Notes under the pieces: model-generated | The model's database searches: none | Seen by the model: only the letters and a program-made list of their open reading frames with translations | Told to the model about the DNA's origin: nothing | Shown: piece by piece, positions 247-17,477 of the stretch | Position numbering within the stretch: position 1 is the stretch's first letter | Layout of the letters: every line of letters starts with the position of its first letter | Made by a program: the position numbers and the translations under genes | IMG/VR virus record: IMGVR_UViG_3300044641_002725 | Reading direction: 5' to 3' (one strand) | Source: a virus | DNA length: 64,000 nucleotides

Positions 247-321
247 GCCGGATTAGCACAGCGGTAGTGCAATCGCCTTGTAAGCGATAGGTCGTCTGTT
301 CGAACCAGACATCCGGCACCA
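247..321 (+). tRNA. tRNA-Thr(UGU)
   Basis: Cloverleaf GCCGGAT/ATCCGGC, anticodon loop CT-TGT-AA, GTTCGAA T-loop, encoded CCA. Confidence 0.95.
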
Positions 322-483
322 TATTTGTTAAGTGTGTGTGAGAAAGTGTTTAGCCGACAGCCTAACTATCAAGGTGAATAACCATCCTTCTATGCAATCC
401 AATCCGATGGCTACGGGCATACTGCAATAGAATGTGAGAGCCATAACAGGCTCTTAAACATATGATAGTACACTTAACAAATA
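322..483 (+). ncRNA. Putative structured ncRNA between tRNA-Thr and tRNA-Pro
   Basis: 14-bp perfect closing stem 322-335/470-483 plus internal helices (346-352/455-461, 365-371/463-469, 388-396/423-432, 437-442/449-454); no credible ORF. Confidence 0.65.
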
Positions 484-491
484 TATAAATA
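484..491 (+). promoter_or_regulatory. T4-type late promoter TATAAATA
   Basis: Exact match directly upstream of tRNA-Pro (very close spacing, so function uncertain). Confidence 0.4.
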
Positions 492-492
492 T

Positions 493-566
493 CTCGGTAT
501 GGTGAAATGGTATCATTCGTGGTTTGGGACCATGAGGCGCAAGTTCGATTCTTGCTACCGAGACCA
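493..566 (+). tRNA. tRNA-Pro(UGG)
   Basis: CTCGGTA/TACCGAG acceptor stem, TT-TGG-GA loop, CCA. Confidence 0.93.
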
Positions 567-572
567 GTTTTT

Positions 573-647
573 GGGGGATTAGTGATAATGGGAGCACATG
601 TGCTTTGCAAGCATGAAGTAAGAGTTCGATTCTCTTATCCTCCACCA
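573..647 (+). tRNA. tRNA-Ala(UGC)
   Basis: G3:U70 pair, TT-TGC-AA loop, CCA. Confidence 0.95.
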
Positions 648-686
648 TTAATGTAAAGAAGTAATAATAAAAAATGAAAGTATAGA

Positions 687-1133
687 ATGTTATATCTAAT
701 AAAATCGTTTACTGATAGTGTAATGGGAATGCTGAATGAAGATCCAGTGCGCCCTCATATTCCACATGTTGACAGAGTTGGTGACAACAAAGACATTTTT
801 GTCTTGCGTGATCCAGATGAACAAGTGAAAGCAATCACATGCGTCAGTTATCAAACAGAAATTCCAACAAAAGAAACTGAATTGTTTCAAGTTTCAACTG
901 AACCCGTTGTTGCAATCTTTTATACCATCTGGAGTTATGCTCCGGGTGCTGGTCGTACATTAATTTTTGATGCTGTTAGACACATCAAAGAAAACAAACC
1001 AGAAATTCAAAGATATGTTACACTAAGTCCAAGAACTGAAATGGCAAGACGTTTTCATTTGCGTAATGGTGCAGTTGTTTTTAGAGAGAATGAAGACACA
1101 GTTAACTACGAATACCATAGGGTGATTTTATGA
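687..1133 (+). CDS. Minimal malonyl-CoA decarboxylase-like (GNAT-fold) protein
   Basis: Motifs AIFYTI, GAGRTLI, VTLSP, ARRFHLRNGA and VNYEY parallel the MCD motifs AIFYSI, (S/T)LSP, A.FHL.NGA and NY.Y. Confidence 0.6.
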   Translation: MLYLIKSFTDSVMGMLNEDPVRPHIPHVDRVGDNKDIFVLRDPDEQVKAITCVSYQTEIPTKETELFQVSTEPVVAIFYTIWSYAPGAGRTLIFDAVRHIKENKPEIQRYVTLSPRTEMARRFHLRNGAVVFRENEDTVNYEYHRVIL

Positions 1134-1327
1134 GTGATGGTGGAAAAGGAAGCGCACCACGTCCATTTAGCGTGAGTCAGGAAGAATACGCAAATCGATT
1201 TGATGCTATCTTCAAAAAGAATATCAAAGCGGCTGAAGAAATTCATTCTGATAAGGGCTATGAATTAGGCACCAAAGAAGACTATGAAGCATTCAATAAG
1301 AAACGCCAAGATGCGTTAAACAAATAA
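1130..1327 (+). CDS. Hypothetical phage protein
   Basis: ATGA overlap with upstream gene; 65 aa. Confidence 0.75.
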   Translation: MSDGGKGSAPRPFSVSQEEYANRFDAIFKKNIKAAEEIHSDKGYELGTKEDYEAFNKKRQDALNK

Positions 1328-1328
1328 T

Positions 1329-1402
1329 TACTCACTGGTGTAATGGCAGCACCACGGTCTCCAAAACCGTTAGTCAAGGTTCGAGTCCTTGGTGGGTAGC
1401 CA
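1329..1402 (+). tRNA. tRNA-Trp(CCA)
   Basis: ACGGT-CT-CCA-AA-ACCGT anticodon arm, GTTCGAG, CCA end. Confidence 0.93.
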
Positions 1403-1409
1403 AAAAATT

Positions 1410-1483
1410 GCGGGGTTCGTATAGTGGTAATACCTTAGCCTTCCAAGCTAATGCTGACAGTTCGATTCTGTTACCCCGCTCCA
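1410..1483 (+). tRNA. tRNA-Gly(UCC)
   Basis: GCGGGGT/ACCCCGC, CT-TCC-AA, U73 CCA. Confidence 0.95.
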
Positions 1484-1484
1484 C

Positions 1485-1513
1485 TTGACAAAAGGCACAA
1501 TGTAGAATATACT
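1485..1513 (+). promoter_or_regulatory. sigma70-like promoter
   Basis: TTGACA-N17-TATACT upstream of tRNA-Arg. Confidence 0.7.
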
Positions 1514-1532
1514 ACATGTATAGAAATTAATC

Positions 1533-1607
1533 CTGGCGTTAGTATAATGGATAATACAGTAGCCTTCTAAGCTATCAATAGAGGTTCGATTCCTCTACGC
1601 CGGACCA
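1533..1607 (+). tRNA. tRNA-Arg(UCU)
   Basis: CT-TCT-AA loop, AGAGG-TTCGATT-CCTCT T-arm, CCA. Confidence 0.93.
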
Positions 1608-1619
1608 TCTAATGTTAGC

Positions 1620-2090
1620 ATGACCAAAAAACCAAATTCTGCAAAAGGTGTAAACAGTTACGATTCTACATCGACAGGAACATTGATTCCTTTCTTTAAT
1701 AGAAATGTATCAGAGTATCCGACAGAAGCTGGTGGCATTAAGTTCGATTTAGTTCCTGTGACTAAACAAAAAGACTTGATGATAAATCATGCTAGAATGT
1801 ATGCACAACAAGAGTATGATAGAATCATGCAACTTGTTGAAGTGCTAGATAAACAAGCGCAAGAGATTAAACGTAGATTAGAAATAACAGATGCAGTTCA
1901 TGCCGCAGAATATCAGTTTCAACTTGTCATGGGCAATTGCTACTGGTTAGTTTGGAATACACGTAAAGAAAAAACTTTGCTAGTGCTTACTAGTCCAACT
2001 GGGTGGTCAACGGGTAAACCTATTGACTATGAGTACATAGCGCAAGTGAAATACATGGGCGACCATACGTGGATGGAAATTGTAGAATAA
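1620..2090 (+). CDS. DUF2452-like protein
   Basis: Coiled segment followed by A.YQF....G..Y.L and LTSP..W pattern resembling DUF2452. Confidence 0.55.
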   Translation: MTKKPNSAKGVNSYDSTSTGTLIPFFNRNVSEYPTEAGGIKFDLVPVTKQKDLMINHARMYAQQEYDRIMQLVEVLDKQAQEIKRRLEITDAVHAAEYQFQLVMGNCYWLVWNTRKEKTLLVLTSPTGWSTGKPIDYEYIAQVKYMGDHTWMEIVE

Positions 2091-2092
2091 AT

Positions 2093-2176
2093 GCGAGTAT
2101 GGTGGAATAGGTAGACACAAGAGACTTAAAATCTCTCGCCTTGTGCGTCCCGGTTCAAGTCCGGGTACTCGTACCA
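2093..2176 (+). tRNA. tRNA-Leu(UAA)
   Basis: Class II tRNA with variable arm, CT-TAA-AA loop, CCA. Confidence 0.95.
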
Positions 2177-2183
2177 AGTTTTA

Positions 2184-2259
2184 GGGCTGATAGCTTAACG
2201 GTTAAAGCAGAGGACTCATAATCCTTTGAGTGTGGGTTCGATTCCCTCTCAGCCTACCA
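2184..2259 (+). tRNA. tRNA with CAU anticodon (Ile2 lysidine-type more likely than elongator Met)
   Basis: CT-CAT-AA loop; lacks the initiator GGG/CCC anticodon stem. Confidence 0.85.
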
Positions 2260-2671: not shown

Positions 2672-3404
2672 TTCTTGCATAGACGTTTATCAATATGGAA
2701 CAATCGACAGATTGAGTCCAGAAGCCCCAATTCCCGTAATCAAATTAACTAGAAAAGAAACCAGACTTGGTATGGCACGAAATGTCCATAGCAATCTGTA
2801 TAAACTCGGCTGTGACACAACGATAATTTCAAATCAAGCGGCAGGTATCAATGGTGAACCGAGAATCACAAAGACTAGAATCATAGACGAAAAATCTGGA
2901 TATCAAATTGTTAGAATAGATGATGAGCCAAAGATAGATCCATGGGATGGAATTGTAGATACGGAAGGTTATGATGCTGTTGTTGTATCCGATTATAACA
3001 AAGGCTTTCTAACTTACGAACATATTCAAAATCTGATTCACGATTTTAATGGACCAGTTTTTATCGATACGAAGAAAAGAAACTTAGAAGCATTTAATGG
3101 TGCTTACGTTAAGATCAACGAAAAAGAATTTGAAGAAGCCGAGTCTCATGCATGGGATATGATTGTGACACTAGGCGCAAAGGGCGCAATGTTAAAAGGC
3201 GAACACACAAATACTGTACATGCAACAAAAAAAGTTGATGTGGTTGATGTGTGTGGCGCAGGCGATACGTTCTTAGCCGCTTTGACTTATCAATATCTTG
3301 TGACAAATAGCATTGAAGAAGCAATTAAATTTGCAAATAAAGCATCTTCAATTACAGTACAGCATGTGGGAAACTATGCACCAACATTAGAAGAAATTAA
3401 ATGA
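2613..3404 (+). CDS. hldA: Heptose-7-phosphate kinase (HldE domain I / HldA, PfkB family)
   Basis: ILLIGDSCID.Y.YG...RLSPEAPIPV, SDYNKG, DVCGAGDTF motifs. Confidence 0.88.
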   Translation: MTDLKNIQQQTKFKILLIGDSCIDVYQYGTIDRLSPEAPIPVIKLTRKETRLGMARNVHSNLYKLGCDTTIISNQAAGINGEPRITKTRIIDEKSGYQIVRIDDEPKIDPWDGIVDTEGYDAVVVSDYNKGFLTYEHIQNLIHDFNGPVFIDTKKRNLEAFNGAYVKINEKEFEEAESHAWDMIVTLGAKGAMLKGEHTNTVHATKKVDVVDVCGAGDTFLAALTYQYLVTNSIEEAIKFANKASSITVQHVGNYAPTLEEIK

Positions 3405-3871
3405 AACGTTTAGATTTGAAAGAGGTGAGACAATTTATAGAAGAACAAACACCAGAGACTAAAATCTATATTGGTTGTGATTCTGAAAGAATGAGAGTAA
3501 ATGAATTGTGGTACGCAGATTATGTTCTCGCTATCGTAGTTCACATTAACGGAAATAATGGATGCAAATTGTTTGGTGAAGTACAACGTGAACGTGACTA
3601 CGACCAAAAAGTGAATCGTCCAAGGTATCGTCTGATGAATGAAGTGTATAAACTTTCTGAGTTGTATATTAAACTTGCAGATGTATTGGAGGGGCGAGAT
3701 GTTGAAGTTCATTTGGATATTAATCCAAACGAAATGCATGGTAGTTCTTGTGTTATTAACGAAGCAATTGGATACATCAAGGGAACATGTAATGTTGTGC
3801 CTATGGTTAAACCAAATGCGTTTGCGGCATCATATGCGGCAGACAGACTGAAAGGATTGAAAGTTGCGTAA
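3401..3871 (+). CDS. RNase H-like YkuK (DUF458) family protein
   Basis: IYIGCDS ... EV..L ... VHLDIN ... AASYAADR. Confidence 0.75.
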   Translation: MKRLDLKEVRQFIEEQTPETKIYIGCDSERMRVNELWYADYVLAIVVHINGNNGCKLFGEVQRERDYDQKVNRPRYRLMNEVYKLSELYIKLADVLEGRDVEVHLDINPNEMHGSSCVINEAIGYIKGTCNVVPMVKPNAFAASYAADRLKGLKVA

Positions 3872-4586
3872 ACTCTTTATTATGACTTTGCTTTGTGTGA
3901 GTAGTCTTGCACATGCTGAACGTGTATCAGGTACTGGTGAATATTCATTCGGTCCTGATACTGCTGAAAATGTTGCATGTAGACTTGCTGAAGAAAAAGC
4001 AAAACAAAATGCAATTGCAAATTTTGTTGGTGAATTGATTGAAGCCGCACAGAATGAAAGTTGTAAAGATGAGAAGTGTACGACACTATCAACTTTATAT
4101 ACTGAAGTGAGTGGTGAGATTAAAACAATTATCAAGAAAGACAAACAAGTTTATCCTGATAGAAATCGGCAAGTGTGTGAAGTTGACATTGTAGCTGACG
4201 TAGAGAAGATTACCAACACAATGAAGTTTCATGTTGAAGGTAAGAATCAATTTAAAGTTGGAGAACGATTTGTCTTTCAAGCTGTCTCTGGAATTACAGG
4301 TACCGTTGGTGTTTTTAATCTAGTTGACAAAGAGTATCAAATGGTCTATACTGACAAAGTACTTGAGATTAATAAACAGGTTCAGATTCCATCCGCTAGA
4401 TACAAAATGCAAGCTGAATTGCCACTTGGCAAAGGTCATTCTAATGAGTTGCTAGTGTTTTTGTTTACCGATAAGAATTTGACTTTTAAGAGTCGGTATA
4501 GTACAATGGAGTTTGATTCACTGGTAAAGAACATTCCGTTCTCTAGCAGAAAAATTGTTAATCATCATGTGAGCATTGAAAGGTAA
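3864..4586 (+). CDS. Secreted/periplasmic hypothetical protein
   Basis: TTG start with AAAGGA SD; signal peptide ending AHA. Confidence 0.65.
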   Translation: MRKLFIMTLLCVSSLAHAERVSGTGEYSFGPDTAENVACRLAEEKAKQNAIANFVGELIEAAQNESCKDEKCTTLSTLYTEVSGEIKTIIKKDKQVYPDRNRQVCEVDIVADVEKITNTMKFHVEGKNQFKVGERFVFQAVSGITGTVGVFNLVDKEYQMVYTDKVLEINKQVQIPSARYKMQAELPLGKGHSNELLVFLFTDKNLTFKSRYSTMEFDSLVKNIPFSSRKIVNHHVSIER

Positions 4587-6396: not shown

Positions 6397-6654
6397 ATGT
6401 CAGCATTAAAAACATATCTAGATCGCAAGAACGCATACGCTACAATCTTTGGTGCCAAAGCACTTACGTTAGATAGTGCTACTGACCGTCAAAAAATTGC
6501 CGATTCAATCGATTCAGATTTGAGTCCCGAGAATTTGACTTGTGATGGTGAACTGCCCCGTAGTTTGGTCCAGAAACGCTACAAGGAATTGACAATGGCG
6601 GCTAAAGAACTGCAAAAACTTGACCCTTCCGTTAAATTTTACGAATTTGCATAG
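6397..6654 (+). CDS. Early hypothetical protein
   Basis: Strong SD AAAGGA; LSPENLTCDGE motif. Confidence 0.8.
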   Translation: MSALKTYLDRKNAYATIFGAKALTLDSATDRQKIADSIDSDLSPENLTCDGELPRSLVQKRYKELTMAAKELQKLDPSVKFYEFA

Positions 6655-12649: not shown

Positions 12650-12657
12650 GAGTAAAA

Positions 12658-13527
12658 ATGAAGATTGCAATTGCATCCGATGTTCACCTTGAATTTGGTG
12701 ACTTGATTTTAAAGAACGAAGAAAACGCTGACGTACTAATACTGTCTGGCGATATCTGCGTTGCGGCTGATTTTCGTGATCCCGATATTTACAGTATGGT
12801 GCAAGGCGGTAAGACTCAACGTTATATTGAGTTTTTTACTCGCTGTGCGAATGAATTTTCCAAAGTGATTTATGTTGTTGGAAATCACGAACATTATCAT
12901 GGAGACTATGCTGAAACGTTTACGATTCTACGAAAGTACTTGGGACATATTGAGAACTTGCACATTCTTGATAAAGAGCATGTGACAATTGATGACGTAA
13001 CATTTATTGGTGGTACATTGTGGACCGACATGAATGCACAAGACCCGGTTACTCTTGCACACATCCGTGTTAAGATGAATGATTTTCGTCTTATTGAAAA
13101 TAGCAATGAAATGGTTTCATACCGAACATTCGATGTGAATGAAGAAGGTACAGAGATTCCTACGTTTCGTAAACGTCCCGCTAGGTTCACACCAGAAGAT
13201 ACTGTACAGGATCATAAAAAGATGTTAGAATACATTAATGTAACAAGTGAGCCTTTCGGTAAATATGTTGTTGTTGGTCACCATGCACCTAGCAAGGCAT
13301 CTACACATCCACGATATCAGACTGAAGTGATTGTGAATGGCGCATACAGTAGTCGTTTAGATCAATTCATTCTTGACAATCCACAAATCAAATTGTGGAC
13401 TCACGGACATACGCACGAAGAATTTGATTATATGATTGGCACTACTAGGGTTGTTTGCAATCCACGTGGATACATAAATTATGAAGACCGTGCTGAAGAC
13501 TTTAAACTAAAATACGTGGAGATTTAA
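12658..13527 (+). CDS. Calcineurin-like metallophosphoesterase
   Basis: SDVHLE, GD, GNHEHY, HHAP, HGHTH. Confidence 0.9.
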   Translation: MKIAIASDVHLEFGDLILKNEENADVLILSGDICVAADFRDPDIYSMVQGGKTQRYIEFFTRCANEFSKVIYVVGNHEHYHGDYAETFTILRKYLGHIENLHILDKEHVTIDDVTFIGGTLWTDMNAQDPVTLAHIRVKMNDFRLIENSNEMVSYRTFDVNEEGTEIPTFRKRPARFTPEDTVQDHKKMLEYINVTSEPFGKYVVVGHHAPSKASTHPRYQTEVIVNGAYSSRLDQFILDNPQIKLWTHGHTHEEFDYMIGTTRVVCNPRGYINYEDRAEDFKLKYVEI

Positions 13528-14952: not shown

Positions 14953-15771
14953 ATGGCGACACATAAAAATACTACAACATCAAGAAGGGCACCCATGGCA
15001 AGAAAACCCGCTGTATCTAAGTCGGCAAATACCGAACCAGAATTTCAAACCCCTCCTAAATTAAAATCAGTCAATAACACACTTAGACTTAGACTAGATG
15101 ATTTAAAAACTTTTGATCCGTTAACAGACAATCAAAAACTTTTTTTCGATGCATATAAACGTGGAGACTATTTCGTAGCACTTCATGGTGTAGCGGGTAC
15201 AGGTAAAACATTTTGTGCGCTATACAAAGCAATTGAAGAAGTAATGGACAAATCAAATCCATTTGATAAAATTATTGTGGTGCGATCCGCAGTACAGAGC
15301 CGAGAAATAGGACATTTACCTGGTGATGTAAATGAGAAGATGGAAATTTATCAACAACCATATCGTCAAATCTGCGACACCCTTTTTGGTCGCAAAGATG
15401 CATGGGATAGATTAGAAGAACAAGGACACATTGAGTTTATCTCCACATCATTCATTCGTGGTATGTCATTTGATGATGCTATCATTATCGTTGATGAAAT
15501 GCAAAATATGACATTTGAAGAGATCGATACTGTTATGACAAGGGTTGGCTATCGTTCTAAAATTATTTGGTGTGGTGACTATAGACAAACCGACTTGAAT
15601 AAAAAGAAGAATGATGTATCAGGTATTCTTAAATTCTTTGACATTGCATATCACATGAATGCATTTACAAAGATTGAATTTACTGTAGATGATATCGTTC
15701 GTTCTTCATTGGTAAAAGATTATATTTTGGCGAAGTTGCAACATGAAGACGGAGTAGATACTGCTAAATAA
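14953..15771 (+). CDS. phoH: PhoH family protein (alternative start 14995)
   Basis: GVAGTGKT, IGHLPG, RGMSFDD, DEMQN, GDYRQ.D. Confidence 0.93.
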   Translation: MATHKNTTTSRRAPMARKPAVSKSANTEPEFQTPPKLKSVNNTLRLRLDDLKTFDPLTDNQKLFFDAYKRGDYFVALHGVAGTGKTFCALYKAIEEVMDKSNPFDKIIVVRSAVQSREIGHLPGDVNEKMEIYQQPYRQICDTLFGRKDAWDRLEEQGHIEFISTSFIRGMSFDDAIIIVDEMQNMTFEEIDTVMTRVGYRSKIIWCGDYRQTDLNKKKNDVSGILKFFDIAYHMNAFTKIEFTVDDIVRSSLVKDYILAKLQHEDGVDTAK

Positions 15772-15800
15772 AATATCATTATAACAACAGGATTACTAAA

Positions 15801-16490
15801 GTGAAATTTAAACACATTGGATGCGACATTGACTATGATTTGGAAACCGAAACAATAAACGGCAAACGATTCTACAAGACACCAGAGGGATTACTATATC
15901 CTTCTGTGACTACTATTACATCCCAACATGGCAAAGATAAAATCCTTGAATGGAGAAAACGTGTGGGTGAAGAAGAAGCGAATCGTATTTCAACTAAAGC
16001 ATCCAATCGTGGGACTAAAGTACACAAGATTTGTGAAAACTATTTGAACAATGAAGAAGATTATGCTCGTACAAATCCAGCGCATATCCACAAGACAATG
16101 CCAGATACTATTGCTATGTTCAAATCGTTACAACCTCTATTGGATGAACACGTAAACAACATTCACGCATTAGAAATTCCTTTGTATTCTCATCATCTAA
16201 AAGTTGCTGGTAGAGTTGACTGTATTGCAGAGTATGATGGTAAACTGTCTATCATCGATTTTAAAACTTCAGGCAAGTTAAAAGAAGAGAGTTGGATTAA
16301 AGGATACTTTATGCAATGTTCTGCTTATGCAGTCATGTATGAAGAACGAACTGGAATACCAGTATCACAAATTGTAATTATGATTGCCGTTGACTCTGAA
16401 TACCCACAAGTGTTCATCAAAAAACGCAATGATTACATCAAAGATTTTATATCTTACCGTGAAGCATATGATGCTGTATTGATTGACTAA
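15801..16490 (+). CDS. PD-(D/E)xK exonuclease
   Basis: YPSVTT, RGT.VH, AGRVDCIAE, IIDFKTS, Q..AYA. Confidence 0.88.
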   Translation: MKFKHIGCDIDYDLETETINGKRFYKTPEGLLYPSVTTITSQHGKDKILEWRKRVGEEEANRISTKASNRGTKVHKICENYLNNEEDYARTNPAHIHKTMPDTIAMFKSLQPLLDEHVNNIHALEIPLYSHHLKVAGRVDCIAEYDGKLSIIDFKTSGKLKEESWIKGYFMQCSAYAVMYEERTGIPVSQIVIMIAVDSEYPQVFIKKRNDYIKDFISYREAYDAVLID

Positions 16491-16496
16491 ATAATA

Positions 16497-16562
16497 TTAT
16501 TGCTGTATGAAGCAAAGAGAAACAGGTTTTGGACGGGGGTGCGAATCCCCCCACCTCCACCA
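16497..16562 (+). ncRNA. ssrA: Two-piece (permuted) tmRNA, acceptor piece (5' end approximate)
   Basis: GGAC-GGGGG-TGCGAAT-CCCCC-CACCTCC-A-CCA; follows an ACTAAATA late-type promoter. Confidence 0.88.
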
Positions 16563-16572
16563 AAAGTAAATT

Positions 16573-16725
16573 ATGAAATATAAAATTGTAGTAAAAACTG
16601 GCGACAAAACTTTCGTAAAAGATGTAAGTAAGAGTAAAGAACATTTGCTTGTTAAAGCAGAAAGTCTTTCTAAAAAACATCCGAAATGGAAAGTATATGT
16701 TGTTGCAGAAAATACAATTATATAA
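16573..16725 (+). CDS. 50-aa basic ORF inside the tmRNA intervening segment
   Basis: MKYKIVVKTGDKTFVKDVSKSKEHLLVKAESLSKKHPKWKVYVVAENTII fills nearly the whole IVS. Confidence 0.55.
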   Translation: MKYKIVVKTGDKTFVKDVSKSKEHLLVKAESLSKKHPKWKVYVVAENTII

Positions 16726-16737
16726 TTTATTTTTGAT

Positions 16738-16904
16738 GGGGGTGCATAGTTTCGACAGGGCAAAGAGTAACAGAGTGGACAGCACATCAGCAACGATGTA
16801 AAAAGAAGAAAACAAAGTAAACGCAAACGACTCACGTTTCGCATTGGCAGCCTAAACGCTGACTAGGGTTTCGACAGGTTTCCTCGTAACAGAATAACCT
16901 GTCA
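16738..16904 (+). ncRNA. ssrA: Two-piece tmRNA, coding piece; tag ANDSRFALAA at 16823-16855
   Basis: GGGGGTG pairs with CACCTCC including G3:U70; TTCGAC D-loop analogue; resume GCA-AAC-GAC; 3' hairpin GACAGGTT/AACCTGTC. Confidence 0.9.
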
Positions 16905-16922
16905 CTTACTTATGGAGAAATA

Positions 16923-17477
16923 ATGAAAATAACTGATTCGAAAATAATCCCTGATGTTAAAATCATCAACCTTCCTGTCTATAGAGACAATCGTGGTTTC
17001 TTTACTGAAACATTTAGACCCGAAGTTGAAGAAGCCCTTGGCGTAAAATTTCTTCAAGACAATCAATCTGTATCACTCAGGTATGTTCTAAGAGGCATCC
17101 ATTTTCAATGGGATCAACCAATGGGTAAATTGGTTCGTGTTACTCATGGATATGGAATTGATGTTGCTGTTGATTTGCGAAAAGACTCTTCAACATATGG
17201 GCAGTATCATGCTGAGTTGTTAGGACCAGAATCAAACAATCAGTTATGGGTGCCAGCAGGCTTTGGTCATGCGTTTCTTTCATTAGGAGAATATACGCAT
17301 CTAATGTACAAATGCACCGCAGTACACAACCCTAAAGCAGAAGCCGCAATTAATCCATTTGATAAAGATTTGAATATCGATTGGCAAACAATTGATGAAA
17401 TCAAAGACTTTATTCTATCAGACAAAGACAGAGCCGCAGGTTCTTTCGCAGATTATAAACTAAATCCAAAATTCTAA
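16923..17477 (+). CDS. rmlC: dTDP-4-dehydrorhamnose 3,5-epimerase
   Basis: D.RGFF.ETF, QDNQS.S...VLRGIHFQ, KLVRV, DLR..S.TYG, GFGHAF, LSDKD. Confidence 0.92.
   Translation: MKITDSKIIPDVKIINLPVYRDNRGFFTETFRPEVEEALGVKFLQDNQSVSLRYVLRGIHFQWDQPMGKLVRVTHGYGIDVAVDLRKDSSTYGQYHAELLGPESNNQLWVPAGFGHAFLSLGEYTHLMYKCTAVHNPKAEAAINPFDKDLNIDWQTIDEIKDFILSDKDRAAGSFADYKLNPKF

What the first reader, a model, noticed from the sequence alone, without database searches (positions are those of the whole stretch)
16559..16737. Protein-coding ORF looped out inside the tmRNA intervening segment
Seen: the IVS is about 175 nt. Its ends form a ~17-bp stem extending the acceptor helix (16559-16575 with 16721-16737, one mismatch, two G-U), and this stem sequesters both the ATG (16573) and the TAA (16723-16725) of a 50-codon Lys-rich ORF that fills the loop. 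There is no SD. Inference: tmRNA maturation (RNase P plus 3' trimming) would release a short-leader mRNA, coupling production of a small basic protein to tmRNA processing. The protein could be an RNA-binding helper or anti-defence factor, or the IVS may be a safe harbour for cargo genes. I know of no described example, but cannot check the literature here.
Basis: partly seen in the sequence, partly recalled or inferred. Interest (0 to 1): 0.8.

Follow-up and report, generated by a model that had tools for sequence, protein, structure and literature searches.

The report
Small protein gene inside phage tmRNA spacer
The piece of RNA that is cut out when this lake phage's two-piece ribosome-rescue RNA (tmRNA) matures carries a real, strongly selected 50-codon protein gene clamped by a conserved stem, so a "throw-away" spacer of a stable RNA also serves as a messenger and as an exchangeable slot for small genes.

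Summary
Window 16501-16855 is a circularly permuted tmRNA. Its 175-nt intervening segment (16563-16737) holds a 50-codon ORF (16573-16725). A 17-position stem (16559-16575 with 16721-16737) covers both the start and the stop codon.

- **The ORF is a real gene.** In 19 distinct copies it has no indel or stop, and median dN/dS is 0.15 (0.17 among spacer-resident copies alone). Homologues stand free in other phages. The fold prediction is confident (pLDDT 92).
- **The stem is selected.** 96% of cells are paired and 9 pairs show compensatory changes, including TAA/TAG covarying with the leader.
- **The loop is an exchangeable slot.** A syntenic relative has unrelated 88-nt filling, with homology breaking exactly at 16568/16731. 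Other phages carry a CxxCxxCC protein or a homing endonuclease there.
- **Free-standing homologues point to SD-independent starts.** Three have near-consensus promoters placed for leaderless mRNA.
- **The family stays close to tmRNA genes.** It lies in or within 700 nt of a tmRNA gene in most contexts.

It is inferred, not shown, that tmRNA processing releases the mRNA. The protein's function is unknown.

I found no published description. This scan has made the same kind of finding on other phage genomes.

The parts
16501..16562 (+). tmRNA acceptor piece (5' pairing region, T-arm, 3' acceptor strand CACCTCC 16552-16558, discriminator A 16559, encoded CCA 16560-16562)
   Evidence: Rfam RF04321 alignment; ARAGORN; sequence
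16563..16737 (+). Intervening segment (IVS), 175 nt, removed during maturation of a two-piece tmRNA
   Evidence: Lies between CCA and the 5' acceptor strand and is treated as an insertion by the covariance model. It has the same 175-nt length in 12 or more relatives
16559..16575 (+). 5' strand of the closing stem (discriminator, CCA, leader AAAGTAAATT, ATG)
   Evidence: Pairs with 16721-16737. Covariation in 7 pairs of helix 1; duplex energy -12.2 kcal/mol
16573..16725 (+). 50-codon gene (MKYKIVVK...ENTII, pI 9.9), beta-beta-alpha-beta mini-protein
   Evidence: dN/dS 0.15-0.17. Only this frame is open in all 19 copies. AF2 pLDDT 91.8. Free-standing homologues
16584..16590 (+). 5' strand of the inner helix, inside codons 4-6 (AATTGTA)
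   Evidence: Alignment columns 33-39 pair with 162-168. Two pairs show double changes made of synonymous or conservative codon changes
16713..16719 (+). 3' strand of the inner helix, inside codons 47-49 (TACAATT)
16721..16737 (+). 3' strand of the closing stem (last sense codon, TAA stop, trailer TTTATTTTTGAT ending at the RNase P site)
   Evidence: pair 20-174 shows stop TAA/TAG covarying with leader T/C.
16569..16730 (+). Exchangeable cassette: the part replaced by unrelated 88-nt filling in syntenic relatives
   Evidence: BLASTN homology of L117, L104 and L078 to the window breaks at 16568 and resumes at 16731. IVS sequences
16738..16855 (+). tmRNA coding piece up to the tag stop: 5' acceptor strand GGGGGTG (16738-16744, G3.U pair), tag ORF 16823-16855 (ANDSRFALAA*)
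   Evidence: Invariant U.G at alignment pair 5-189
16856..16946 (+). 3' part of the coding piece as delimited by ARAGORN, including hairpin 16871-16898; overlaps the start of the next gene (RmlC, ATG 16923)

Best explanation
The window holds a phage-encoded two-piece (circularly permuted) tmRNA gene. Its intervening segment is a long hairpin that extends the acceptor helix. The apical loop of that hairpin houses a bona fide 50-codon gene for a basic beta-beta-alpha-beta mini-protein.

Shown:
- The gene is under purifying selection while resident in the spacer.
- It has co-diverged with the tmRNA.
- The closing stem, which covers the start and stop codons, and an inner helix inside the ORF are maintained by compensatory changes.
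- The loop content is a swappable cassette among related phages: empty filling, this gene, a CxxCxxCC protein or a homing endonuclease.

Inferred:
- The protein is translated from the pre-tmRNA transcript by SD-independent initiation.
- The most likely route is cleavage just 3' of CCA plus RNase P cleavage at 16737/16738. This would free a roughly 175-nt RNA with a leader of 10 nt or less whose paired ends protect it. That form resembles the leaderless mRNAs that free-standing homologues appear to make.
- Each maturing tmRNA would then yield one message.
- Because the family stays in or beside tmRNA genes in several architectures, the protein may act in the tmRNA/translation sphere, but its function is not known.
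For: - **tmRNA identity:**, with an invariant G3.U pair.
- **Coding:** 19 distinct copies have no stop or indel. Variable sites by codon position are 25/22/47 and median dN/dS is 0.15. Among 14 IVS-resident copies the median is 0.17 and the highest pN/pS is 0.52, with Fisher p = 5e-7 and 2e-8 for two deep pairs. All other frames carry stops. AF2 gives pLDDT 91.8.
- **Free-standing homologues:** L005 has ATGA overlaps with both neighbours. L149, L153 and L159 have sigma70-like promoters matching 10/12, 11/12 and 12/12, ending 6-7 nt before the ATG.
- **Structure:** 96.2% of cells paired, 9 compensatory pairs, 0 of 500 shuffles reach this.
- **Long residence:** ORF and mature-tmRNA distances correlate, Mantel r = 0.64, p = 2e-4.
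- **Cassette swap:** L117 is syntenic at 85-96% identity, with homology breaking at 16568/16731.
- **Other cargo:** L075 CxxCxxCC (PF03692, 29.4 bits against a cut-off of 23) with the same ATG and stop placement. L153 homing endonuclease (phrog_655, E = 3.5e-13).
- **No promoter could give a 5' end at the ATG** inside the tmRNA gene (sequence; scan).
- **RNA-library contigs:** in three studies they join the acceptor piece, IVS/ORF and coding piece.
- **Linkage to tmRNA:** in the IVS (14 window-like copies, plus L146 and L156); 4-15 nt upstream (L149, L153); 310 nt upstream (L160); 650 nt upstream (L004); 670 nt downstream (L157).
Against: - No RNA 5'/3' ends, ribosome footprints or peptides are available. 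The RNA runs are contigs only and cannot show ends, strand or level, and DNA carry-over is possible.
- The AUG and stop lie in a -12 kcal/mol stem that should hinder initiation.
- If 3' maturation of the acceptor piece is exonucleolytic, processing would destroy the message rather than release it.
- About half of the window's genes also lack a clear SD, so a missing SD is not special here. Some relatives have AAGGA in the leader (L140, L144, L010, L156), which could act as an SD on the unprocessed precursor.
- Linkage to tmRNA could be inherited synteny rather than function. L005/L006 and L016 show no tmRNA in their 52.7-kb and 18.9-kb records.
Confidence: 0.7

Rival explanations
1. Real gene, but message and stable RNA compete. 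The protein is translated only from unprocessed precursor or read-through transcripts, by internal initiation when the AU-rich stem breathes or via a weak AAGGA-type SD. tmRNA processing destroys the mRNA. The spacer is simply a neutral parking place with no functional tie to tmRNA.
For: Precursor-like RNA contigs span acceptor, IVS and coding piece at depths like the upstream mRNA. Several relatives have AAGGA 4-6 nt before the ATG. Unrelated cargo uses the same slot, which argues that residence needs no link to tmRNA function. In E. coli-type 3' tRNA maturation exonucleases trim the trailers (established knowledge).
Against: The window's own leader has no SD, and start and stop are both in a selected helix. 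Three free-standing homologues look leaderless, so the gene is suited to 5'-end-dependent initiation. The family stays near tmRNA in five different architectures.
Confidence: 0.3
2. The protein is a dedicated partner of the phage tmRNA or of trans-translation, for example binding tmRNA, SmpB or the tag-directed proteolysis machinery. Its placement inside or beside ssrA would ensure co-expression.
For: The family lies in or within 700 nt of a permuted tmRNA in the large majority of contexts, across at least five arrangements and both alpha-like and beta-like phage tmRNAs. In L149 and L153 one promoter precedes ORF then tmRNA. The protein is basic (pI 9.9).
Against: Syntenic relatives with nearly identical tmRNA lack the gene in the segments held (L117, L104, L078). 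Copies exist with no tmRNA nearby (L005, L016, L159). The tRNA/tmRNA region of T4-like phages is a general hot spot for small ORFs. No fold match points to RNA binding.
Confidence: 0.25
3. The ORF is not coding: an open frame arising by chance in an AT-rich structured spacer, conserved only because of RNA structure.
For: The IVS is a highly structured hairpin (MFE -54.8 kcal/mol). There is no Pfam or PHROG family. Long antisense ORFs also occur in the window.
Against: dN/dS is 0.15-0.17, with third-position variation twice that of positions 1 and 2. Homologues occur as operon genes and promoter-led genes outside any tmRNA. The fold prediction is confident. Antisense and other frames carry stops in relatives.
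Confidence: 0.02

Closest known systems
Phage-encoded two-piece (circularly permuted) tmRNA, e.g. OM43 phage Melnitz and pelagimyophages (PMC9004378); Rfam RF04321/RF01850/RF01849
   Same: Same gene form: acceptor piece with encoded CCA, then IVS, then coding piece with an ...ALAA tag, in an aquatic T4-like phage near tRNA genes.
   Different: The described genes are treated as RNA-only. Here the IVS carries a selected protein gene, and the IVS loop varies as a cassette among relatives.
tmRNA genes interrupted by group I introns, some carrying LAGLIDADG homing endonuclease genes (PMC11915505)
   Same: A protein gene nested inside sequence that is removed from the tmRNA precursor.
   Different: That interruption is a self-splicing intron in the T-loop of a one-piece tmRNA, and the ORF is the intron's own mobility gene. 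Here there is no intron fold. Removal would be by tRNA-processing enzymes at the permutation junction, and the cargo is a non-nuclease mini-protein.
Permuted tmRNA with a tRNA-Ala gene, or with a repetitive element, in its intervening sequence (noted as unique cases in PMC11915505)
   Same: Shows that the IVS of permuted tmRNA genes tolerates foreign inserts.
   Different: Those inserts are an RNA gene and a repeat. No protein-coding insert is reported there.
mRNA-tRNA co-transcripts, such as the E. coli thrU-tyrU-glyT-thrT-tufB operon and the small ORFs of the T4 tRNA region (my own knowledge, not checked here)
   Same: One primary transcript is cut by RNase P and RNase E into stable RNAs and translatable mRNA.
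   Different: There the ORFs lie beside the tRNAs. Here the ORF lies inside the stable-RNA gene, between its two halves, enclosed by a helix continuous with the acceptor stem.
Leaderless mRNAs, such as lambda cI from PRM (my own knowledge)
   Same: Three free-standing homologues have consensus promoters ending 6-7 nt before the ATG and no SD. The IVS copy also lacks an SD and lies 10 nt from a processing site.
   Different: In the IVS copy a 5' end near the AUG could only come from RNA cleavage, not from transcription initiation. This is untested.

Membership tests
Circularly permuted two-piece tmRNA (Rfam RF04321) | Covariance-model score above the curated gathering score | tested here: met
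   102.6 bits against 47, model positions 1-213. ARAGORN reports a permuted tmRNA
Circularly permuted two-piece tmRNA (Rfam RF04321) | Permuted order: T-arm, 3' acceptor strand and CCA come first, then the IVS, then the 5' acceptor strand and tag ORF | tested here: met
   CCA at 16560-16562, GGGGGTG at 16738-16744, tag at 16823-16855
Circularly permuted two-piece tmRNA (Rfam RF04321) | G3.U70 alanine identity pair in the acceptor helix | tested here: met
   Alignment pair 5-189 is U.G in 13 of 13 sequences
Circularly permuted two-piece tmRNA (Rfam RF04321) | Tag reading frame ending in a hydrophobic ...ALAA degron followed by a stop | tested here: met
   ANDSRFALAA*
Circularly permuted two-piece tmRNA (Rfam RF04321) | Processing into two base-paired RNAs and activity in trans-translation | not testable with these tools
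   Needs Northern blots or end mapping in infected cells. RNA contigs show higher word depth on the two mature parts than on the IVS, but contigs cannot rank levels
Group I intron with nested homing endonuclease gene | Group I intron fold around the ORF; nuclease motif in the ORF | tested here: not met
   No intron family at gathering score in the window. The ORF has no Pfam or PHROG nuclease match. The insert lies at the permutation junction, not in the T-loop
Leaderless or short-leader mRNA | The RNA 5' end lies at, or within a few nt of, the AUG, and translation is SD-independent | not testable with these tools
   Indirect evidence only. There is no SD in the leader. Promoters are placed for leaderless transcripts in the free-standing homologues L149, L153 and L159. 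5' ends are unmapped
Small phage inhibitor or antitoxin folds (T4 Dmd, ATfaRel2, ClpS-like alpha/beta) | Significant structural similarity over the domain | tested here: inconclusive
   Foldseek against PDB gives no match with E <= 0.001; the best TM-scores are 0.69 (8pu2) and 0.63 (5hy3_B). VIA-align best Z is 5.7, ClpS Z is 5.0 and Dmd Z is 4.4, all below the Z of about 8 where a match is informative
Pfam T4_Y13H (PF25744) / DUF2188 small phage proteins | Profile match above the curated cut-off | tested here: not met
   The window protein has no hit. Only the distant homologue L016 gives 17.9 bits against a cut-off of 27. BFVD structural neighbours at TM about 0.8 include one DUF2188 protein at E = 0.09

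The most novel reading that the evidence does not exclude
The 50-aa protein is a phage-made accessory factor of the phage tmRNA. Its synthesis would be set one-to-one by tmRNA maturation: RNase P plus 3'-end cleavage of each precursor releases one stem-protected, near-leaderless mRNA. The loop of the permuted tmRNA's spacer would then be a general processing-driven expression slot that phages exchange by recombination within the conserved stem.
Probability: 0.2. Interest if true: 0.85.

Novelty: new variant of a known kind. Interest (0 to 1): 0.72.

Why it matters
Stable-RNA precursors are normally thought to discard their spacers. Here a spacer of a ribosome-rescue RNA is also a messenger. 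RNA-structure selection and protein selection are superimposed on the same bases: compensatory changes run through the stop codon and through synonymous sites.

- It gives a concrete, testable case of gene expression that may be driven by tRNA-type processing rather than by a promoter and SD.
- It defines a recombination-friendly slot in phage genomes where small genes, including homing endonucleases, can sit without harming an RNA gene.
- Annotation pipelines that mask tmRNA genes may systematically miss these proteins.
- It nominates a small protein family that tracks tmRNA genes, a lead into why phages carry tmRNA at all.

Tried and rejected
- **GenBank phages:** BLASTN of the tmRNA region (INPHARED) gave only a 67-nt T-arm match to a Xanthomonas phage, so there is no annotated close relative.
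- **Family searches on the ORF:** Pfam, PHROGs and ESM Atlas features gave nothing above noise.
- **Fold searches:** PDB Foldseek, VIA-align wide and BFVD returned only generic beta-beta-alpha-beta neighbours and no functional assignment.
- **Longer N-terminal forms:** some gene callers report 72-84 aa forms, which are read-through of the T-arm (GRGFDSLHLHQK). In the window an in-frame TAA at 16567-16569 closes that frame, and the extension is not conserved.
- **Antisense ORFs:** the 122-aa and 115-aa ORFs across the tmRNA carry stops in relatives.
- **Internal promoter:** none is positioned to start at the ATG.
- **Metatranscriptomes:** only Logan contigs were available, so no RNA ends, strand or levels could be read. 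The joints 16566/16568 to 16731 are best read as relatives with other cassettes, not as processing.
- **Papers not held:** the classical two-piece tmRNA papers (PMC16621, PMC516066) could not be read, so processing details rest on PMC11915505 and general knowledge.
- **Not run:** a complex prediction, because no binding claim is made.

Full report
**1. What is at the coordinates**

ARAGORN finds one permuted tmRNA in the window (16470-16946, tag ANDSRFALAA*), downstream of eight tRNA genes. Rfam's permuted-tmRNA model RF04321 matches 16501-16855 at 102.6 bits against a gathering score of 47. It treats everything between CCACCA and GGGGGTG as an insertion.

Reading the sequence gives these landmarks:
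- the 3' acceptor strand CACCTCC is 16552-16558;
- the discriminator A is 16559 and the encoded CCA is 16560-16562;
- the 5' acceptor strand starts at 16738;
- the intervening segment (IVS) is therefore 16563-16737, 175 nt.

The ORF runs from ATG 16573 to TAA 16723-16725. It has 50 codons with 12 Lys and a pI of 9.9.

Positions 16559-16575 pair with 16721-16737, with one C.A mismatch and two G.U pairs (-12.2 kcal/mol).

The flanking genes are PhoH (14953-15771), a PD-(D/E)XK exonuclease (15801-16490) and RmlC (16923-17477). This is a T4-like freshwater phage with no close relative in GenBank phages.

**2. The ORF is a real gene**

A search of 5.8 billion proteins found 19 homologues at 70-98% identity, all about 50 aa. 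Some gene calls extend upstream through the T-arm (GRGFDSLHLHQK). This shows that those copies sit in the same context. In the window an in-frame TAA at 16567-16569 closes that extension.

From viral and metagenome contigs and from exact look-ups I collected 19 distinct nucleotide versions.
- None has an indel or a stop.
- Variable sites by codon position are 25/22/47, and median pairwise dN/dS is 0.15.
- Among the 14 IVS-resident versions alone the median is 0.17, and no pair exceeds pN/pS 0.52. Two deep pairs give Fisher p = 5e-7 and 2e-8.
- All five other frames carry stops in relatives.
- AlphaFold2 on a 17-sequence alignment gives pLDDT 91.8 with strands 3-8 and 13-19, helix 22-35 and strand 40-45.

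The gene also exists outside any tmRNA.
- In L005/L006 it is an operon gene with ATGA overlaps to an upstream 86-aa ORF and a downstream dCMP deaminase. That 52.7-kb record has no tmRNA.
- L160 and L162 are likewise translationally coupled.
- L157 has a canonical AGGAG Shine-Dalgarno sequence.

A profile search of 1.84 billion cluster representatives found only 25 clusters, all 46-98 aa. The family is small and restricted to phage-like contigs.

**3. The stem is real and selected**

On 13 distinct IVS-resident relatives (alignment A2, no gaps) I scored three helices: the acceptor helix (8 bp), the 15-bp closing stem and a 7-bp inner helix inside the ORF (window 16584-16590 with 16713-16719).
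- 96.2% of cells are paired.
- 9 pairs change on both sides.
- 0 of 500 shuffles reach this value, and slid controls give 40-58% paired.

Two details stand out. First, the stop codon covaries with the leader: TAA pairs with TTA and TAG pairs with CTA (pair 20-174). Second, in the inner helix Ile ATT changing to ATC or ATG is matched by Thr ACA changing to ACG or ACC (pair 36-165). RNA structure and protein coding are therefore selected on the same bases.

The base of the stem (CCAAAAG ... CTTTTGAT) is shared by ORF-less phage tmRNAs. It is a feature of the tmRNA precursor, not of the ORF.

**4. The loop is an exchangeable slot**

A pattern scan for the acceptor-CCA-AAAG junction recovered 51 tmRNA junctions (44 distinct IVS sequences). 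Their IVSs range from 26 to 284 nt.

The MKYK gene occupies exactly 175 nt in all twelve sequenced IVS versions of that length, with the ATG 10 nt after CCA and the stop 12 nt before the RNase P site. L150/L151 (182 nt, ATG at 17) and L146 have longer leaders.

L117, L104 and L078 have tmRNA pieces 92-96% identical to the window's. L117 is syntenic across PhoH, exonuclease, tmRNA and RmlC at 85-96% identity. Yet their IVS is an unrelated 88-nt hairpin. Homology stops at 16568 and resumes at 16731.

Among IVS-resident copies, ORF distance and mature-tmRNA distance are correlated (Mantel r = 0.64, p = 2e-4). This indicates long co-residence punctuated by cassette replacement.

Other cargo sits in the same slot:
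- **L075:** an 86-aa CxxCxxCC protein (PF03692, 29.4 bits against a cut-off of 23), with the ATG at offset 11 and the stop at -12.
- **L153:** a 146-aa homing endonuclease (phrog_655, E = 3.5e-13; Pfam HNH 18.3 bits, below its cut-off).
- **L088:** a 71-codon ORF that runs 34 nt into the mature tmRNA.
- **L130:** AAGGAG, then 6 nt, then ATG, followed by a 21-codon hydrophobic ORF.

**5. How it is probably expressed**

Shown: selection has acted on the protein while the gene sat in the IVS, so it must be translated from that context.

Shown: nothing in the tmRNA acceptor piece resembles a promoter that could start at the ATG. The window's leader has no SD: its anti-SD duplex energy is -0.4 against a median of -4.2. 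However, only 24 of 45 long ORFs in the window have an SD core.

New lead: three free-standing homologues carry near-consensus sigma70-type promoters that end 6-7 nt before the ATG. This is the geometry of leaderless mRNAs.
- L149: TTGACG-17-TATACT (10/12).
- L153: TTGACA-17-TACAAT (11/12).
- L159: TTGACA-17-TATAAT (12/12).

Inference: in the IVS copies a 5' end near the AUG can only arise by RNA cleavage 3' of CCA, and RNase P cleavage at 16737/16738 would define the 3' end 12 nt after the stop. The paired ends would protect the released hairpin. Permuted tmRNA transcripts are cleaved by tRNA-processing enzymes (PMC11915505).

Against this inference:
- the stem should hinder initiation;
- exonucleolytic 3' trimming would destroy the message;
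- some relatives have AAGGA in the leader.

Contigs from three independent lake metatranscriptome studies contain the ORF joined to the acceptor piece or to the coding piece, and one X1 contig spans all three parts. Word depth is 4-10 there, against tens to more than a thousand on the mature parts. Contigs cannot show ends or levels, and DNA carry-over is possible.

**6. Link to tmRNA**

Besides the IVS copies (14 window-like versions, plus L146 and L156), the gene lies in these positions:
- 4 nt upstream of a tmRNA with an ORF-less IVS (L149);
- 15 nt upstream of the tmRNA whose IVS holds the homing endonuclease (L153);
- 310 nt upstream of a tmRNA (L160/L161);
- 650 nt upstream of a tmRNA (L004);
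- 670 nt downstream of a tmRNA (L157/L158).

No tmRNA was found in the DNA held for L005, L016, L159 and L162. The association is suggestive, but inherited synteny could explain it.

Fold searches give no functional handle.
- Foldseek against PDB finds no match at E <= 0.001.
- VIA-align gives Z of 5.7 or less, which covers ClpS, the CapRel C-terminal domain, Dmd and ATfaRel2 at non-informative scores.
- BFVD neighbours at TM about 0.8 are uncharacterised small phage proteins.

**7. Comparison with what is known**

Phage two-piece tmRNAs are described (Melnitz, PMC9004378). The 2025 tmRNA database paper reports group I introns with homing endonuclease genes in the T-loop. It also singles out, as unique, a tRNA-Ala and a repetitive element inside permuted IVSs (PMC11915505).

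Full-text searches for two-piece, permuted or split tmRNA found no report of a protein gene in the IVS.

Earlier agents of this scan reported the same kind of arrangement on other phage genomes, with cysteine mini-proteins, membrane peptides, a 49-codon gene and an HNH gene. The MKYK family itself had not been noted except for the tmRNA call on this same stretch.

**8. Verdict**

This is a new variant of a known kind: a permuted tmRNA whose spacer doubles as an mRNA and as a cargo slot. The specific additions are a covarying start/stop-clamping stem, evidence that the cargo family uses leaderless initiation elsewhere, and a recurrent physical link to tmRNA genes.

Noticed in passing
L153:1805-2443 (tmRNA), ORF 1884-2324: A related phage's permuted tmRNA has an IVS of about 450 nt holding a 146-aa homing endonuclease (phrog_655, E = 3.5e-13; HHIVPKHMGGSN motif). 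The MKYK gene sits just upstream behind a TTGACA-17-TACAAT promoter.
   Followed up: partly
L075:2777-3297 (- strand), ORF 2967-3224: A 284-nt IVS carries an 86-aa CxxCxxCC (PF03692) protein with the same geometry as here: ATG 11 nt after CCA, and stop 12 nt before the RNase P site and inside the closing stem. The locus also holds more than 25 tRNA genes.
   Followed up: partly
L088:12540-12941 (- strand), ORF 12655-12867: A 194-nt IVS has a 71-codon ORF that starts 12 nt after CCA and ends 34 nt inside the mature coding piece. Processing at the RNase P site would leave it without a stop codon.
   Followed up: no
L130:6353-6609, ORF 6429-6491: An 80-nt IVS has a textbook AAGGAG, 6-nt spacer and ATG, followed by a 21-codon hydrophobic ORF (MDHEAVLLGAFVLIGLVLVFF). 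L124 and L080 have a different 25-codon hydrophobic ORF.
   Followed up: no
L004:2924-3164 and 3805-4082: The MKYK gene, preceded by what looks like a decayed tmRNA acceptor piece (CCTCACCAAAAGCAAATT), is bracketed by an exact 13-nt direct repeat ACTAAGCTATGAA (2924-2936 and 3152-3164). It lies 650 nt upstream of an intact tmRNA of a different lineage with a 90-nt ORF-less IVS. This looks like a rearrangement or takeover remnant.
   Followed up: partly
L149:2466-2851, L153:1601-1640, L159:732-770: Three free-standing homologues have 10/12, 11/12 and 12/12 sigma70-type promoters ending 6-7 nt before the ATG and no SD. They are predicted leaderless mRNAs in T4-like aquatic phages.
   Followed up: partly
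window 247-2259: A cluster of eight tRNA genes (Thr, Pro, Ala, Trp, Gly, Arg, Leu, Met) lies 14 kb upstream of the tmRNA, with gaps between them that may hold small ORFs.
   Followed up: no
window 16871-16898: An 8-bp hairpin (GACAGGTT...AACCTGTC) with no U-run closes the tmRNA 3' region about 25 nt before the RmlC start (SD GGAGA, ATG 16923). It is conserved in L004. It may be a processing or 3'-end signal rather than a terminator.
   Followed up: no
L117 versus window 15753-15798: The syntenic relative L117 carries about 750 nt of extra DNA between PhoH and the exonuclease gene that the window lacks. This is another indel hot spot in the region.
   Followed up: no
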